DNA of 64,000 bases. Source: a virus. Taxonomy: Duplodnaviria; Caudoviricetes. Numbering within the stretch: position 1 is the stretch's first letter; each line of letters begins with the position of its first letter. Location: positions 1-64,000 of the IMG/VR virus record IMGVR_UViG_3300030433_001574; one strand, written 5' to 3'. Shown here piece after piece: positions 27,427 to 33,734 of this stretch. A program made the position numbers and the translations under genes. The notes beneath the pieces were generated by a model, which did no database searches, was not told where the DNA came from, and was given only the letters and a program-made list of their open reading frames with translations.

Positions 27427-28179
27427 ATGACGAAACTAAGCATAAACAGAAAACAGTTGTTGGGCTTCCTATCGGAGTTCGGCAAGGCAGAGGACTTGCG
27501 AATACACTTCGATGACAAATCCATGACAGCATCAGTTGCTTTCATCTCCCACTACATAACGAAGACAAGAGAAGTAGACGGAGAGGTGAAAGAGAATGGT
27601 AACCTTGACATCACTGAACTGGTCAAGGTTCGTCAGTTCCTCAAGGCGGCGAAGGATGATGTCGTGAACATTTCACAGACAGGCTCAGCCAAGACACTGA
27701 ACATCACATGCGGGTCATCCAAGATTTCAATGCCTACGTCTTCAACAATCGTCAGTGCGGCTAAGGCTTCACTGTTTGAGAAGTTGATTGAGGAGGCTGA
27801 AGCCAGCGAGTGGACAAAGTTTCACTCGTGCGACCTGAGCGTATCAGGGGTTATCACACTGGATGAGTTGGCTACTGTATCGAAGATGCGAGGCATTCTC
27901 AACAGCAGTCCTATCTTCAAGATTACAGCCAACCCCAGTGAGAATGAGTTCCTCATATCATCGGGCAAGAGGCACGAAACCAAGTTGTTCACTACGCTTG
28001 AGTTGCGTGATTCTACTGGCCCAGTCACTGGTAGCGTGAGTTCTACATACGGCTCGTGGTTGATGGACAGCATCGCTTTACTGGGTGGTGGCGAGGCCAC
28101 CATACACATAGGCGAAGCGACTATCATCGCTCTTGAGAAAGATGATGACCTACTTGTTATCGTAGACCAACGAGCGTGA
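27427..28179 (+). CDS. Sliding clamp (PCNA-like)
   Basis: 250 aa, alpha/beta pattern, located between the RFC operon and polB; no strong motif. Confidence 0.6.
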   Translation: MTKLSINRKQLLGFLSEFGKAEDLRIHFDDKSMTASVAFISHYITKTREVDGEVKENGNLDITELVKVRQFLKAAKDDVVNISQTGSAKTLNITCGSSKISMPTSSTIVSAAKASLFEKLIEEAEASEWTKFHSCDLSVSGVITLDELATVSKMRGILNSSPIFKITANPSENEFLISSGKRHETKLFTTLELRDSTGPVTGSVSSTYGSWLMDSIALLGGGEATIHIGEATIIALEKDDDLLVIVDQRA

Positions 28180-28183
28180 TTGA

Positions 28184-30592
28184 ATGATTATCGACTGGTA
28201 TTACCCTGCTGAGTCTGACAACTTTGGACAACCCAATCTCTACCTACGGACTCGTGACAAAGAAGGCACACTGCACGAAGAGCACATATGGCCTGAAGAC
28301 GAGAGGTATGTGAAACCACACTGCTGGATTCCAGTGAACACACCTGAGTGGAAACTCAATCGTATGATGGCTCGATACCCCAGTGCTCAGATTCATCGGA
28401 GTATTCGTGCCACTGGTATCGACAAGACCCCACTTATGAAGGTCGAAGTGGACAGACCTACTGACTTATGGGACATCAAAGATGAGATGCCTACTTATGA
28501 AGCAGACTTGAATTATCTCGACCAAGTGCTACTGCAACTCTATCCTGAGAAGTTACCTGAGTTCAAGCCACGAGTGTGGTATTTTGATTTGGAGTGGGAC
28601 ACCAAAGATGACTTCACATCCGTCATGGCTGTTGTAGACAGCGACCTTGAGACTCCTGTTGTATTCGCATGGGCTGATGAGGAAAGAACCAACTGTCCTC
28701 ATCCAACACACATCGTAAGTGCGAGGCACATGAAGGTGCGTGATGAAGAATACATACTGCAAATCTACCCTTCCGAAGCGGAGATGCATGAAGCCTTCAT
28801 CAAATTTCTACACAAGCGTGACCCTGACATTCTCGTAGCCCATGCTATCATGTGGGCTGACTTACCGCATCTGATGCGTAGACTGAAAGACCCTGACCAA
28901 CTCTCACCACTCGGTCAAGTGATTCGACCATTCAAAGGTAGAGATGGCTACAAGGACACTCAACAGCCCATCAAGGGTAGGCTGTGCTGGGACTCAGCGG
29001 CTCACTGGAAGAGTGGTAGTGGTTTTGAAACGCTATGGCAAAAATCAGGTCGTGGGCAACTACCTAACCGTAAGTTGAATACCATAGCAGAATTGCTTGG
29101 ACTTGGTAGTAAACTGACAGAAGAGATTGAGGGCATGACCGTTCACAATGGTTGGTATGAATACTGGAGTTATTTCGTAGATTACTGTCTCCTCGATACC
29201 ACGTTACTGCGTGACATCGACAAGAAACTCAACGCTATTGACTTCTTCGTTGCTACTCAGCAGTTGTGTGGTGTCTCGTGGGCGAGCACACACAAAGTTA
29301 CTCGATACTTCAGAGGGCTTGTTGGTAGAAGGACGGACAAGAAAGCCAAGAGTGCCATGAACCAGCGACGTGAAAAACTCACTGCCGCCCACATTCCCGA
29401 CCCTATACCGGGTCGTCACGAAGGCGTAGCCATTGTGGACTATGCTTCTCTCTATCCTAACATCATCCTCTCCGACAATCTCTCCTACGAGACAAAGCGT
29501 GACCAACCTACAGAGACTACCAAGACACTGGGCGATGGCTCACACTGGTGTCAGAAGGAGAAGGGTCTACTCCCTGCTATCGTAGAAGAGATGCTTGAAC
29601 TGCGTGCTGAATACAAGAGACTCATGCGTGAGGCTACAGACCCTGATGAGAAACTCGGTTACGACATGATGCAAACAGCGGCGAAGGTTCTCGTCAATGC
29701 GCTCTACGGTATGACTGGGATGAAAGCCCTGCAAGGTATGTGGATTGACAACGACATAGCCGCCGCTATCACACACAGAGGGCGTGAATGTATTCACCAC
29801 CTACTGACTGAAAGTGAAGAGCAGGGTTACAAATCGCTCTACGGTCACACAGATTCAGCCTTTATCCAAGTTCCCTTTGATAAAGCGACATCGCTTGCAG
29901 AGCACTTGACCAAGACTGCTAAGGACAAACTTGAGTTACCAACAATGGAAGTTGAACTTGAGGCTTACTTCGATTACTGGACGACTGCACCAGTGAAGAA
30001 TCGTTACTTTGGTATCAAGGTGTGGCCTGAGAAGAGCAAAGGTGAGATGAAGATTGCTGGCTATGAAATCAAAGCCTCCAGTTCTTCACGTTTGACCAAG
30101 CACATTCAACAAGTGGCTATGCAAATGATAGGCACTGGTGCTGATGAGACGGCTGTTACTGACGTGCTGAGAGAGATAAGCCTCCAAGTCAAGAACGGCG
30201 AGATACCGATTGAGGACGTGGCTTGCTCGTCTCGATTGACGATGGATTTCAAGGACTACAAGAGCCTACCCGCACCAGCCAAAGCCGCCATGTATTACAA
30301 CCAACACGTTGCCACCAACGCTGAAGAGCGATGGAGCAAAGGCGACAGTGTATCATGGATTTATGTCAAGGGCTTCAACAATGACGTGCCTGACTACTAC
30401 ACACTCAAAGGAGAGCGAAAGAAGGTAGACTTCGTTGCTTTCCGTGATAAAGCGGAGTTGGAGAACTACACCATAGACTGGGACAAAGTGCTCAGTGTGA
30501 TGGTTAAATCTAAACTCATGCGAATCTACGAGAGCCTTGACTGGGCGCTTGACGCTGCTTCAGGAGCGACAATGCCAAAGTCATATTTTTGA
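28184..30592 (+). CDS. polB: Family B DNA polymerase
   Basis: Exonuclease FDLE, YCLLD; DYASLYPNII, KVLVNALYG, YGHTDS, KNRY. Confidence 0.97.
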   Translation: MIIDWYYPAESDNFGQPNLYLRTRDKEGTLHEEHIWPEDERYVKPHCWIPVNTPEWKLNRMMARYPSAQIHRSIRATGIDKTPLMKVEVDRPTDLWDIKDEMPTYEADLNYLDQVLLQLYPEKLPEFKPRVWYFDLEWDTKDDFTSVMAVVDSDLETPVVFAWADEERTNCPHPTHIVSARHMKVRDEEYILQIYPSEAEMHEAFIKFLHKRDPDILVAHAIMWADLPHLMRRLKDPDQLSPLGQVIRPFKGRDGYKDTQQPIKGRLCWDSAAHWKSGSGFETLWQKSGRGQLPNRKLNTIAELLGLGSKLTEEIEGMTVHNGWYEYWSYFVDYCLLDTTLLRDIDKKLNAIDFFVATQQLCGVSWASTHKVTRYFRGLVGRRTDKKAKSAMNQRREKLTAAHIPDPIPGRHEGVAIVDYASLYPNIILSDNLSYETKRDQPTETTKTLGDGSHWCQKEKGLLPAIVEEMLELRAEYKRLMREATDPDEKLGYDMMQTAAKVLVNALYGMTGMKALQGMWIDNDIAAAITHRGRECIHHLLTESEEQGYKSLYGHTDSAFIQVPFDKATSLAEHLTKTAKDKLELPTMEVELEAYFDYWTTAPVKNRYFGIKVWPEKSKGEMKIAGYEIKASSSSRLTKHIQQVAMQMIGTGADETAVTDVLREISLQVKNGEIPIEDVACSSRLTMDFKDYKSLPAPAKAAMYYNQHVATNAEERWSKGDSVSWIYVKGFNNDVPDYYTLKGERKKVDFVAFRDKAELENYTIDWDKVLSVMVKSKLMRIYESLDWALDAASGATMPKSYF

Positions 30593-30601
30593 GGTGATAA
30601 A

Positions 30602-30745
30602 ATGAAAAAGACAAGACAAACAACACTGGACGAATACGGACTGACAACTGATGGACGAAGACAAACCAAACTCACTGAGTTTGGAATGACGTTTGAAGTT
30701 GATATAAAAAGGAACAGTAAAGACGATGTTGGTGAGGAAGAATGA
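30602..30745 (+). CDS. 47-aa tandem PIP-box microprotein (not in ORF track)
   Basis: MKKTRQTTLDEYGLTTDGRRQTKLTEFGMTFEVDIKRNSKDDVGEEE; GAGGTGA RBS; ATGA overlap with next gene. Confidence 0.7.
   Translation: MKKTRQTTLDEYGLTTDGRRQTKLTEFGMTFEVDIKRNSKDDVGEEE
30698..30716 (+). promoter_or_regulatory. Conserved TATA promoter motif, copy 11 (variant)
   Basis: GTTGATATAAAAAGGAACA. Confidence 0.75.
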
Positions 30746-30927
30746 GTAAGAAGCGAGTTAAATTCACTGGGATAATAGACATAGACGAATCTGAATTACA
30801 AGACGGACATCTAAGTTCTTTGTATGAAGCATATGGATGGACACTTGAAGATGTGGTGAAGGATAACATGAATCGACCTACCACACCTGTCAATTTCTCT
30901 ATCACTGACGCAGAGGTGGTTGAATGA
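30742..30927 (+). CDS. Hypothetical protein
   Basis: RBS and overlaps. Confidence 0.65.
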   Translation: MSKKRVKFTGIIDIDESELQDGHLSSLYEAYGWTLEDVVKDNMNRPTTPVNFSITDAEVVE

Positions 30928-32308: not shown

Positions 32309-32614
32309 ATGGATAGAGAGGGACTTATCACAGTCTGTAAACTCATGGAGAAGGCGTTAAGCAAGATATGGCCGTTCTACACGTTCACAGTCGAATACTC
32401 ACTTCTTTCACGGAGTAGGCAAATCAGAATCCACACTACATCACGGATAATAAATGAAGATGATTTTGATGCCACAGTGGAGGTTAGAGGCTTGGTTTTT
32501 GAAGTCCTTGTTCATCCGTCAAGACTGACATCACAATACATTGACGAAACCTTTGATGATGTCGTTAGTAGATTGTTAGAAGAAATCACACTCATAGAAA
32601 GCGTAGAGGATTGA
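32309..32614 (+). CDS. Hypothetical protein
   Basis: GAGGTGA RBS. Confidence 0.65.
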   Translation: MDREGLITVCKLMEKALSKIWPFYTFTVEYSLLSRSRQIRIHTTSRIINEDDFDATVEVRGLVFEVLVHPSRLTSQYIDETFDDVVSRLLEEITLIESVED

Positions 32615-32618
32615 TACA

Positions 32619-33734
32619 ATGGGCTTCATCACACTGGACTTTCCTCGTGAGGTGCTTGAGATAGCATCAAACGGAAAGCAGGGTGGTCGCTACTGCGTAA
32701 AGAACTGGCAAGAGTTGGAGCGATACTGGAAGGGCAAGAACGGTAGTGGTAACGTCTACTTCACAGCATACGGTTATCGTGCCACTAAACCACCGAGAAA
32801 CCACAGAGTAGACTACGACACACCAATCATCCGTCACTTCGTCATGGACTTCGATTGTAAGGACTTCAAGCAGAGAGGTGCGGAGGTAGATTTTTCGTTC
32901 ATGCACGAACAGGTTAAAAGGCTACATCGTTTTTTGCTCAGTGAAGACATTCGCCACTTCGTATGGTTCAGTGGCGGTGGCTTCCACATTTGGATTCCGC
33001 TACAGAACATACACACCCCATCAGATGGCTACAGCGTAGCGAGAGTCAAAGAGGGTGGTAGGAAACTCATAGCCTCGTGGCACAAGAAACTCTCACTCTC
33101 TTGCAACGACCCTACTGTCGCCTTCGATACGTCAGGTATGATTCGCATTCCGAACTCATACAACAGTAGACGAGGATGCTGGAGCATACCACTCGACTCT
33201 GATTCTATTCTCAACCTCACGCACGATGGCTTGATGGAGAAAGCCCAAGAGCCTGTCAGTGGTTACATCGAGCATGGTCAAAACAATGTTGCTATTAAAG
33301 TAGCAGAGCGTAGAAGTCCATTCAAGAAGACGATTGAGAAGGTCGAAGGGCTACCTGACATTACGTTGGGTGACATCATCGTGCTCCCATGTCTCGCACA
33401 GTCAGCCCTCGGTGAAGGTAACCCGACACACAAGGCGAGGTTTCACTTAGCATCGTATCTCGCCGCACGACTGCGTTGGTTTTATCCACCTGATGCCATC
33501 GAAGATGATGTGAAGGCTGAACATGTCAATCGCATCTGTGCCATCATAGAAGAGCAGGGATGGGTTGATTACTCCCCTCGTATTACTCGTGAACAAGTAG
33601 AGAACATCGTCTTTGGCGGCGCTGGTAACAACGGTTATTCAGCCGCATCGTGCGCTACGCTTGAATACGATGGGCTTTGCAGTGGTAGATGTCGATACTT
33701 TGACGGTAGCATAGGTGATACAGATGGTGACTAA
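32619..33734 (+). CDS. Archaeo-eukaryotic primase, catalytic domain fused to PriL-like Fe-S domain
   Basis: DFD, SGGGFH, RIPNS; C-terminal LPCL..H..R..SC..LCSGRC. Confidence 0.85.
   Translation: MGFITLDFPREVLEIASNGKQGGRYCVKNWQELERYWKGKNGSGNVYFTAYGYRATKPPRNHRVDYDTPIIRHFVMDFDCKDFKQRGAEVDFSFMHEQVKRLHRFLLSEDIRHFVWFSGGGFHIWIPLQNIHTPSDGYSVARVKEGGRKLIASWHKKLSLSCNDPTVAFDTSGMIRIPNSYNSRRGCWSIPLDSDSILNLTHDGLMEKAQEPVSGYIEHGQNNVAIKVAERRSPFKKTIEKVEGLPDITLGDIIVLPCLAQSALGEGNPTHKARFHLASYLAARLRWFYPPDAIEDDVKAEHVNRICAIIEEQGWVDYSPRITREQVENIVFGGAGNNGYSAASCATLEYDGLCSGRCRYFDGSIGDTDGD

What the first reader, a model, noticed from the sequence alone, without database searches (positions are those of the whole stretch)
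30602..30745. Unannotated 47-aa microprotein made of two PIP boxes, right after polB
Seen: a GAGGTGA RBS and an ORF with RQTTLDEYG and RQTKLTEFG, while PolB itself ends in TMPKSYF with no canonical QxxLxxF. Inference: either a split-off clamp adaptor for the viral polymerase, or a bivalent decoy that occupies two sites of host PCNA and blocks host replication. It is too short for the ORF track.
Basis: partly seen in the sequence, partly recalled or inferred. Interest (0 to 1): 0.8.

Follow-up and report, generated by a model that had tools for sequence, protein, structure and literature searches.

The report
Viral mini-protein of two clamp-docking motifs
A virus of abundant marine archaea encodes, right after its DNA polymerase gene, a real and conserved 47-residue protein made of little more than two copies of the peptide that replication enzymes use to grip the sliding clamp PCNA, so it most likely works by occupying a clamp's docking pocket, although binding is untested.

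Summary
ORF 30602-30745 (47 aa) has a GAGGTGA ribosome-binding site overlapping the polB stop and two tandem PIP-box-like motifs.

The genome is a 107-kb magrovirus-like archaeal virus with RFC-like loader, its own PCNA-fold clamp (27427-28179) and PolB (28184-30592).

The mini-ORF is a separate cistron. It follows polB in 24 of 60 distinct relatives, on both sides of the deepest PolB split. About 25 further clusters of 28-69-aa peptides with one to three motifs sit elsewhere in viral replication modules, two overlapping the start of a clamp gene.

Only the motif Q-T-[TK]-[LI]-x-E-[FWY] is conserved, with many synonymous codons (pS 0.82, pN 0.25). It matches the PIP grammar of the presumed host order (Poseidoniales FEN1, PolD) and the p21 PIP.

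No viral protein in this genome has a terminal PIP. Complete relatives without the motif still have clamp and PolB.

Best reading: a PIP-only, clamp-pocket-occupying peptide, with host PCNA the favoured target and the viral clamp possible. The adaptor idea is weak. Bridging two pockets of one ring is unlikely because the linker is short.

Binding is untested; the complex prediction gave no verdict. This scan noted similar PIP-only microproteins on other DNA (a giant virus, an Asgard element).

The parts
30602..30745 (+). 47-aa mini-protein ORF (stop included): short basic lead, PIP motif 1, 8-residue linker, PIP motif 2, acidic tail
   Evidence: conserved in 31 loci; exact protein called in public data
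30591..30597 (+). Shine-Dalgarno-like GAGGTGA, overlapping the polB stop codon (30590-30592)
   Evidence: an SD-like GGTGA/GGAGG stands 4-9 nt before the ATG in the relatives. In the distant clade it is built from polB's terminal TGG-TGG-TGA
30614..30640 (+). PIP-like motif 1 (R-Q-T-T-L-D-E-Y-G)
30659..30685 (+). PIP-like motif 2 (R-Q-T-K-L-T-E-F-G), close to the p21 PIP
   Evidence: p21 sequence from PMC6881253
30731..30745 (+). GGTGAGGA SD plus ATGA stop/start overlap with the next gene (ATG 30742). This explains the conserved V-G-E-E-E tail of the peptide
   Evidence: tail conserved only in the near clade
28184..30592 (+). family B DNA polymerase, ends ...PKSYF (no canonical PIP)
27427..28179 (+). 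virus-encoded PCNA-fold sliding clamp with a helical interdomain connector
   Evidence: AF2 pLDDT 92; Foldseek top hits are archaeal PCNAs at E about 1e-12; hhalign to host-order PCNAs 79%, E 1.6e-5, 17% identity
23923..24939 (+). RFC-like clamp-loader ATPase
   Evidence: Pfam AAA and DNA_pol3_delta2
32309..32614 (+). 101-aa protein upstream of the primase. Its orthologues in some relatives carry the same PIP motif in a loop or at the C-terminus; the window's copy does not
   Evidence: primase 32619-33734 by PHROG

Best explanation
The ORF encodes a translated, probably disordered mini-protein whose only selected feature is a pair of PIP boxes. It docks in the client pocket of a PCNA sliding clamp and acts by occupancy, competing with proteins that use the same pocket.

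My favoured version is 'replace and poison'. The virus brings its own divergent clamp and a polymerase with a non-PIP tail, and the peptide, made together with PolB, saturates the host (Poseidoniales) PCNA. That would displace host PolD, FEN1 and RNase HII and stall host replication.

Shown: the ORF, its conservation, peptide-level selection on the motif, the likeness to host PIP tails, and the presence of a viral clamp.

Inferred: binding to any clamp, which clamp, and the effect on the host.

Odds: about 0.75 that it is a PCNA-pocket ligand at all; about 0.4 that host PCNA is the main target; about 0.3 that the viral clamp is.
For: 1. Real gene. SD plus ATG are present in all 31 loci, and the frame relative to polB is 0, +1 or +2, so it is its own cistron.

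2. Peptide-level selection. In 28 distinct nucleotide versions of the motif, Q is 28/28 with both codons, T2 uses all four ACN codons, L/I uses six codons, E6 is 25/28 and position 7 is always aromatic. pS is 0.82 against pN 0.25.

3. Only the motifs are conserved across both PolB superclades (A3). The near-clade tail overlaps the next gene's SD.

4. PIP identity.
- The motif is near-identical to the archaeal consensus PIP crystallised on PCNA (PMC4929162) and to the p21 PIP (PMC6881253).
- Host-order clients end in the same grammar: FEN1 G-Q-[TPS]-[ST]-L-[FL]-[SDE]-F* in 28 genomes, PolD DP2 K-Q-[ML]-S-L-S-D-F-L*.

5. Host assignment. The best cellular matches of the viral thermosome are Poseidoniaceae.

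6. Pointers to the host clamp.
- No protein of this virus has a terminal PIP.
- Complete relatives without the motif still have clamp and PolB.
- All PolBs share a non-PIP tail.
- The viral clamp's connector is a 36-aa segment with a helix, where the host PCNA has the canonical 19-aa loop.
- Host PCNAs are strongly acidic (pI 4.5) and viral clamps near neutral, while the lead of motif 1 is basic.

7. Precedents for small clamp blockers: TIP and phage Twort Gp168 (PMC8565349).
Against: - No binding evidence of any kind.
- Position 8 is G, not aromatic, although the host's own PIPs also lack a second aromatic.
- The flanks are not uniformly basic, and single-motif variants have acidic leads.
- In some relatives other viral replication-module proteins carry the same motif. 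Mini-PIP ORFs also overlap the start of element-encoded clamp genes (L012-14; L254). Both facts fit a role on the virus's own clamp as well as a poison-plus-immune-clamp module.
- Three longer relatives fuse the motif pair to a lipobox-like membrane segment, which is unexplained.
- The motif core also resembles the DUF7487 repeat.
Confidence: 0.5

Rival explanations
1. The peptide acts on the virus's own clamp. It would be a co-produced pocket ligand that gates or times access of clients (PolB, nucleases, the primase-associated protein), or keeps host PIP proteins off viral DNA.
For: - It is genetically linked to viral replication genes everywhere it was found.
- In two independent contexts a mini-PIP ORF overlaps the start of a clamp gene (L012-14; L254 next to a true PCNA homologue).
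- Other viral replication-module proteins carry the same motif in some clades.
Against: - The magrovirus clamp has a rebuilt connector and is near neutral.
- Clamp and PolB exist without any such motif in complete relatives.
- No client of this virus has a PIP with which the peptide could compete.
Confidence: 0.25
2. Split-off adaptor: the peptide bridges viral PolB to a clamp, supplying the PIP that PolB lacks.
For: It lies directly after polB in many lineages, and PolB has no canonical PIP.
Against: - Nothing but the PIP motifs is conserved, so there is no PolB-binding part. Some versions are 25-30 aa with one motif.
- Other family members are not next to polB.
- No fused ancestor or relative was found.
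- All PolBs keep their own conserved tail. In the related T4-type polymerases that tail is the clamp hook (PMC7544198).
Confidence: 0.08
3. Not a PCNA ligand. The repeats are a short version of another module, such as the DUF7487 repeat of endonuclease-like proteins, or they bind another partner or nucleic acid.
For: The peptide profile hits 23 DUF7487 proteins through a shared [KR]-Q-T-x-L-x-x-Y-G core. The lipobox-fused relatives are odd for a PIP.
Against: - Position +5 is acidic in 99% of mini-protein motifs and basic in 89% of DUF7487 repeats.
- The period is 13-15 against 23 or 19.
- DUF7487 is conserved for 20 further residues and the mini-proteins are not.
- Pfam does not place the peptide in DUF7487.
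- The motif can be the extreme C-terminus, as in the host's PIP tails.
Confidence: 0.1
4. A coupling ORF or a read-through tail. Either only the act of translating it matters for downstream genes, or in the window's sub-lineage a TGA read-through adds it to PolB, since here it is in frame (TGA GGT GAT AAA ATG).
For: In the window and in L001-5 and L011 the ORF is in frame with polB. Stop/start overlaps link it to both neighbours.
Against: The frame differs in other lineages. Amino-acid-level selection on the motif is not expected of a mere coupling ORF.
Confidence: 0.05

Closest known systems
C-terminal PCNA-binding peptide of p21 (CDKN1A)
   Same: A disordered PIP peptide that blocks PCNA clients by occupying the pocket. 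Motif 2 matches the p21 PIP at R, Q, T, T5 and F7 and is conservative at positions 4 and 6.
   Different: p21 is a eukaryotic 164-aa cell-cycle regulator with strongly basic flanks and an aromatic at position 8. This is a 47-aa stand-alone viral peptide with two motifs, G at position 8 and mixed flanks. There is no homology beyond the motif.
TIP, the Thermococcales inhibitor of PCNA (64 aa)
   Same: A small archaeal protein that inhibits PCNA stimulation of PolB and FEN1 in vitro. An N-terminal PIP has been proposed for it (PMC4929162).
   Different: TIP is cellular, restricted to Thermococcales, and has a PH-like folded half and one putative PIP. Sequence relation was not tested here and none is expected.
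Archaeal C-terminal PIP tails (FEN1, PolD DP2, RNase HII, RFC-L, PolB)
   Same: Same motif grammar, especially that of the presumed host order.
   Different: Those are tails on enzymes. Here the motif is the whole protein and it is duplicated.
Phage-encoded host-clamp inhibitors (Twort Gp168; PMC8565349)
   Same: A small phage protein that stops host replication by targeting the sliding clamp.
   Different: It targets the bacterial beta-clamp and occupies the DNA channel, not the client pocket. It is unrelated in sequence.
PIP-only microproteins noted earlier in this scan (giant-virus 79-aa protein with three PIPs; Asgard element microprotein beside a clamp)
   Same: Virus- or element-encoded microproteins consisting of PCNA-docking motifs.
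   Different: Different hosts and sequences. Those are unchecked AI notes and were not examined here.

Membership tests
PIP box (PCNA-interacting peptide, Q-x-x-[LIM]-x-x-[FY]-[FY]) | Gln at position 1 | tested here: met
   Invariant in 28/28 motif versions, encoded by both CAA and CAG
PIP box (PCNA-interacting peptide, Q-x-x-[LIM]-x-x-[FY]-[FY]) | Aliphatic residue at position 4 | tested here: met
   L 24, I 4 of 28, encoded by six codons
PIP box (PCNA-interacting peptide, Q-x-x-[LIM]-x-x-[FY]-[FY]) | Aromatic residue at position 7 | tested here: met
   F 11, W 12, Y 5 of 28
PIP box (PCNA-interacting peptide, Q-x-x-[LIM]-x-x-[FY]-[FY]) | Second aromatic at position 8 | tested here: not met
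   G in both window motifs; G in 62% of the family, otherwise I/M/L. Host-order FEN1 and PolD PIPs also lack it, and a few viral relatives have F-F
PIP box (PCNA-interacting peptide, Q-x-x-[LIM]-x-x-[FY]-[FY]) | Lies in a disordered region or at a terminus | tested here: inconclusive
   The peptide is 25-70 aa with no conserved core. In one clade the motif is the extreme C-terminus. No dedicated disorder or fold test was run
PIP box (PCNA-interacting peptide, Q-x-x-[LIM]-x-x-[FY]-[FY]) | Physical binding to the PCNA pocket under the interdomain connector | not testable with these tools
   Needs ITC, pull-down or a structure. The one complex prediction gave no verdict (see Tried and rejected)
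DUF7487 repeat (PF24308) | Match to the Pfam model | tested here: not met
   No Pfam hit for the peptide at E 0.01, while the long hits score 1e-13 to 1e-83
DUF7487 repeat (PF24308) | Repeat anatomy: basic +5, Y at +6, G-V-E...Q-S-E-E-I-K-E-K extension, period 23 or 19 | tested here: not met
   Mini-proteins have acidic +5 in 99%, mixed F/W/Y, no conserved extension and period 13-15
Magrovirus-like archaeal tailed virus (order Magrovirales) | About 100-kb genome with a replication block holding RFC, PCNA, PolB, primase, ligase-like gene, nucleases and a chaperonin | tested here: met
   107,203-bp record. RFC-like, PCNA fold, PolB, primase, ERCC4, Cas4-like and thermosome are present. Gene order matches PMC10768690. 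PolB's nearest GenBank relatives are haloviruses, as reported for magroviruses
Magrovirus-like archaeal tailed virus (order Magrovirales) | Phylogenetic placement with named magrovirus genomes | not tested
   No named magrovirus record was available in the collections searched

The most novel reading that the evidence does not exclude
'Replace and poison': magroviruses and related archaeal viruses shut off host DNA replication with a p21-like peptide made only of PIP boxes that saturates host PCNA. Meanwhile they replicate with an orthogonal clamp-polymerase pair (rebuilt connector, non-PIP polymerase tail) that is immune to the peptide. The peptide and the immune clamp would travel together as a module.
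Probability: 0.35. Interest if true: 0.8.

Novelty: new variant of a known kind. Interest (0 to 1): 0.62.

Why it matters
PIP boxes are known as tails on enzymes and as the inhibitory peptide of p21. I found no description of a family of virus-encoded proteins that are nothing but PIP boxes, neither in the magrovirus papers nor in a full-text search.

Magroviruses are among the most abundant viruses of the surface ocean and cannot be cultured. A 47-residue peptide that can be synthesised, together with two clamps that can be expressed, gives a rare, directly testable handle on how they take over the replication of Marine Group II archaea.

If the host-directed reading holds, it would be the first archaeal-virus counterpart of phage clamp inhibitors, and a natural PCNA-blocking peptide.

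Tried and rejected
- Complex prediction of the viral clamp (A1) with the peptide (A2): no verdict, score 0.00, controls not run.
- blastn of the region against GenBank phages: no match.
- Sequence search of the clamp against PDB, singly and as a profile: nothing. The fold search was needed.
- Peptide profile against PDB chains: only chance hits. PIP peptides are too short for this tool.
- ESM Atlas look-up: holds the exact sequence, no usable neighbours.
- Word-index search for longer or fused forms: none (weak evidence). The exhaustive profile search found no PolB fusion either.
- Motif pattern hits in three host-type genomes other than FEN1 (L171-L174), and one in G004 (L175), were chance matches in non-coding frames.
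- Clamp-sized neighbours of P0023, P0040 and P0020 are not clamps by hhalign.
- Rejected: a fixed read-through or frameshift extension of PolB, because the frame varies.
- Rejected: a DNA-level repeat element, because synonymous sites vary freely while residues are kept.

Full report
**What is there.** The window is the first 64 kb of a 107,203-bp virus record.
- ORF 30602-30745 is open for 47 codons.
- GAGGTGA (30591-30597) stands 4 nt before its ATG and overlaps the TGA of polB.
- The product has a basic lead (M-K-K-T), motif 1 (R-Q-T-T-L-D-E-Y-G), an 8-residue linker, motif 2 (R-Q-T-K-L-T-E-F-G) and an acidic tail.
- Its stop overlaps the ATG of the next gene (ATGA). The tail codons G-E-E coincide with that gene's GGTGAGGA ribosome-binding site, so the tail's conservation need not reflect the peptide.
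- PolB (28184-30592; Pfam DNA_pol_B 3e-45) ends ...PKSYF.

**The genome.**
- The 250-aa gene just upstream of polB has no Pfam or PDB sequence match. It folds with pLDDT 92 into a PCNA fold, and the top Foldseek hits are all archaeal PCNAs at E about 1e-12.
- An RFC-like ATPase, SNF2 helicase, C5 methylase, thermosome, primase, Cas4-like and ERCC4 nucleases surround it.
- Order and content match published magrovirus maps (PMC5434244, PMC10768690).
- PolB's nearest GenBank relatives are haloviruses at 23% identity, as reported for magroviruses.
- The best cellular matches of the viral thermosome are Candidatus Poseidoniaceae MAGs, in line with the proposed MGII host.

**Is the ORF real?** Eighty related loci were fetched through PolB.
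- A mini-ORF with the motif follows polB in 31 of them, which is 24 of 60 distinct PolBs. It is present in all ten members of the window's clade and in two clades on the other side of the deepest split in the PolB tree.
- An SD-like element precedes every copy. The frame relative to polB is 0, +1 or +2, so it is an independent cistron and not a fixed read-through tail.
- Lengths run from 25 to 74 aa and linkers and tails vary, but the motif is kept.
- Over 28 distinct nucleotide versions, Q is invariant with both codons, T2 uses all four ACN codons, L/I uses six codons, E6 is 25/28 and position 7 is always F, W or Y. Synonymous sites are near saturation (pS 0.82) while pN is 0.25.
- This is selection on a translated peptide, not on a DNA repeat.
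- Gene callers have called the exact protein on 22 public contigs.

**A wider family.** An exhaustive profile search (A3) found 49 proteins.
- About 25 are short (28-111 aa) with two or three tandem motifs.
- Their contexts, where contigs are long enough, are again viral replication modules:
  - after PolB (L194, L253)
  - upstream of ligase and RFC (L189)
  - overlapping the start of an ERCC4 nuclease in a split-PolB contig (L252)
  - overlapping the start of a true PCNA homologue in a D5-primase element (L254; hhalign 95.5%)
- In L012-L014, sisters of the window's clade that lack the post-polB ORF, a 67-77-aa ORF with tandem PIP-like motifs overlaps the start of the clamp gene.
- A ~100-aa protein upstream of the primase carries the motif in a loop or at its C-terminus in some clades. 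The window's copy (32309-32614) does not.

**Is it a PIP box?**
- The motif Q-T-[TK]-[LI]-x-E-[FWY] meets positions 1, 4 and 7 of the PIP consensus and lacks the second aromatic.
- It is almost the archaeal consensus PIP peptide crystallised on A. fulgidus PCNA (PMC4929162). Motif 2 matches the p21 PIP at five of nine positions, with two conservative changes (PMC6881253).
- The presumed host order uses the same grammar. FEN1 ends G-Q-[TPS]-[ST]-L-[FL]-[SDE]-F* in 28 genomes, PolD DP2 ends K-Q-[ML]-S-L-S-D-F-L*, and RNase HII ends Q-R-T-L-F*. Each has a single aromatic at or next to the C-terminus. Several viral peptides end the same way.

**A rival look-alike.** Twenty-three long hits of the profile are DUF7487 repeat proteins that share [KR]-Q-T-x-L-x-x-Y-G.
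- Their repeats have a basic residue where the mini-proteins are 99% acidic.
- They have Y almost only, a period of 23 or 19 against 13-15, and a further 20 conserved residues that the mini-proteins lack.
- Their significance comes from many repeats of a short match.
- I treat this as convergence, but kinship is not excluded.

**Which clamp?** This is open.

Pointing to the host PCNA:
- No protein of this virus has a terminal PIP, even by a loose definition.
- Near-complete genomes of other clades (G004, G005) have clamp and PolB but no copy of the motif, so the viral pair works without it.
- All PolBs share a P-[KA]-x-Y-[WF] tail. By analogy with the related T4-type polymerases (PMC7544198), that tail may be their own clamp hook.
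- The viral clamp's interdomain connector is 36 residues with an 18-residue helical segment. A host-order PCNA folded here has the canonical 19-residue extended loop that PIP peptides pair with.
- Host PCNAs are very acidic (pI 4.5, net -17) and viral clamps near neutral.

Pointing to the viral clamp:
- The recurrent coupling of mini-PIP ORFs to element-encoded clamp genes.
- The presence of the motif on other viral replication-module proteins.

Both facts also fit a module of poison plus immune clamp. The single complex prediction gave no verdict.

**Geometry.** The Q-to-Q spacing is 13-15 residues in nearly all family members, which leaves 6-8 linker residues. From the known size of PCNA rings this cannot span two pockets of one ring. 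This is inference, not measured here. The two motifs more likely give rebinding avidity or serve different sites. Single-motif versions exist.

**Verdict.** The feature is a real, conserved, undescribed family of PIP-only mini-proteins of marine archaeal viruses. It most likely works as a pocket-occupying competitor on PCNA. The adaptor reading is weak. Binding, target and effect remain to be measured.

Earlier notes of this scan describe similar PIP-only microproteins in a giant virus and beside a clamp in an Asgard element. I did not check them.

Noticed in passing
window 30742-30927: The 61-aa ORF between the mini-protein and the 138-aa gene is absent from L001 (PolB 98% identical) and the rest of the near clade. 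There the mini-ORF's stop overlaps the start of the 138-aa homologue directly. This looks like a recently inserted microgene with ATGA junctions on both sides.
   Followed up: partly
window 27427-28179 (residues 103-138): The viral clamp's interdomain connector is 36 residues with a confident helical segment at 109-126. A host-order PCNA model has a 19-residue coil. The helix-compatible pattern is conserved in the 29-sequence alignment A1.
   Followed up: partly
window 30575-30592 and all PolB loci L001-L078: Every PolB of the family ends in a conserved G-x-P-x-P-[KA]-x-Y-[WF] tail (variants ...YGWW, ...KLW). It is a candidate non-canonical clamp-binding tail, untested.
   Followed up: no
window 32309-32614; L012:7678-7989, L015:6482-6781, L033:7463-7774: A ~100-aa protein family upstream of the primase gains the PIP motif in an internal loop in some clades and at the C-terminus in others. 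The window's copy lacks it.
   Followed up: partly
P0015, P0032, P0049 (loci L186-L188, L196): Three clusters of 99-143-aa proteins start with the double motif, followed at once by a hydrophobic stretch ending L-A-G-C (lipobox-like) and a conserved ~90-aa domain. Only short contigs carry them, so the context is unknown.
   Followed up: partly
P0007, P0011, P0013, P0016, P0019 and others: DUF7487 repeat proteins (Zn-ribbon-like N-terminus, 4-12 repeats, endonuclease-like C-terminus) share the [KR]-Q-T-x-L-x-x-Y-G core with the mini-proteins. Convergence or distant kinship is not settled.
   Followed up: partly
L082, L083 (NZQM01000043.1, NZQM01000180.1): Two contigs of a MAG labelled Parvibaculum sp. 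encode thermosomes 79% and 49% identical to the viral one. They are probably magrovirus contigs mis-binned into a bacterial MAG.
   Followed up: no
window 30590-30604: In the window and in L001-L005 and L011 the mini-ORF is in frame with polB, separated by TGA plus three codons. In other lineages the frame differs.
   Followed up: yes
genome 84173-85075 (-), outside the window: The only other in-gene copy of the strict pattern in the genome (R-Q-S-L-I-D-R-F-G) is internal to a 300-aa ORF. It has R instead of E at position 6 and is probably chance.
   Followed up: no
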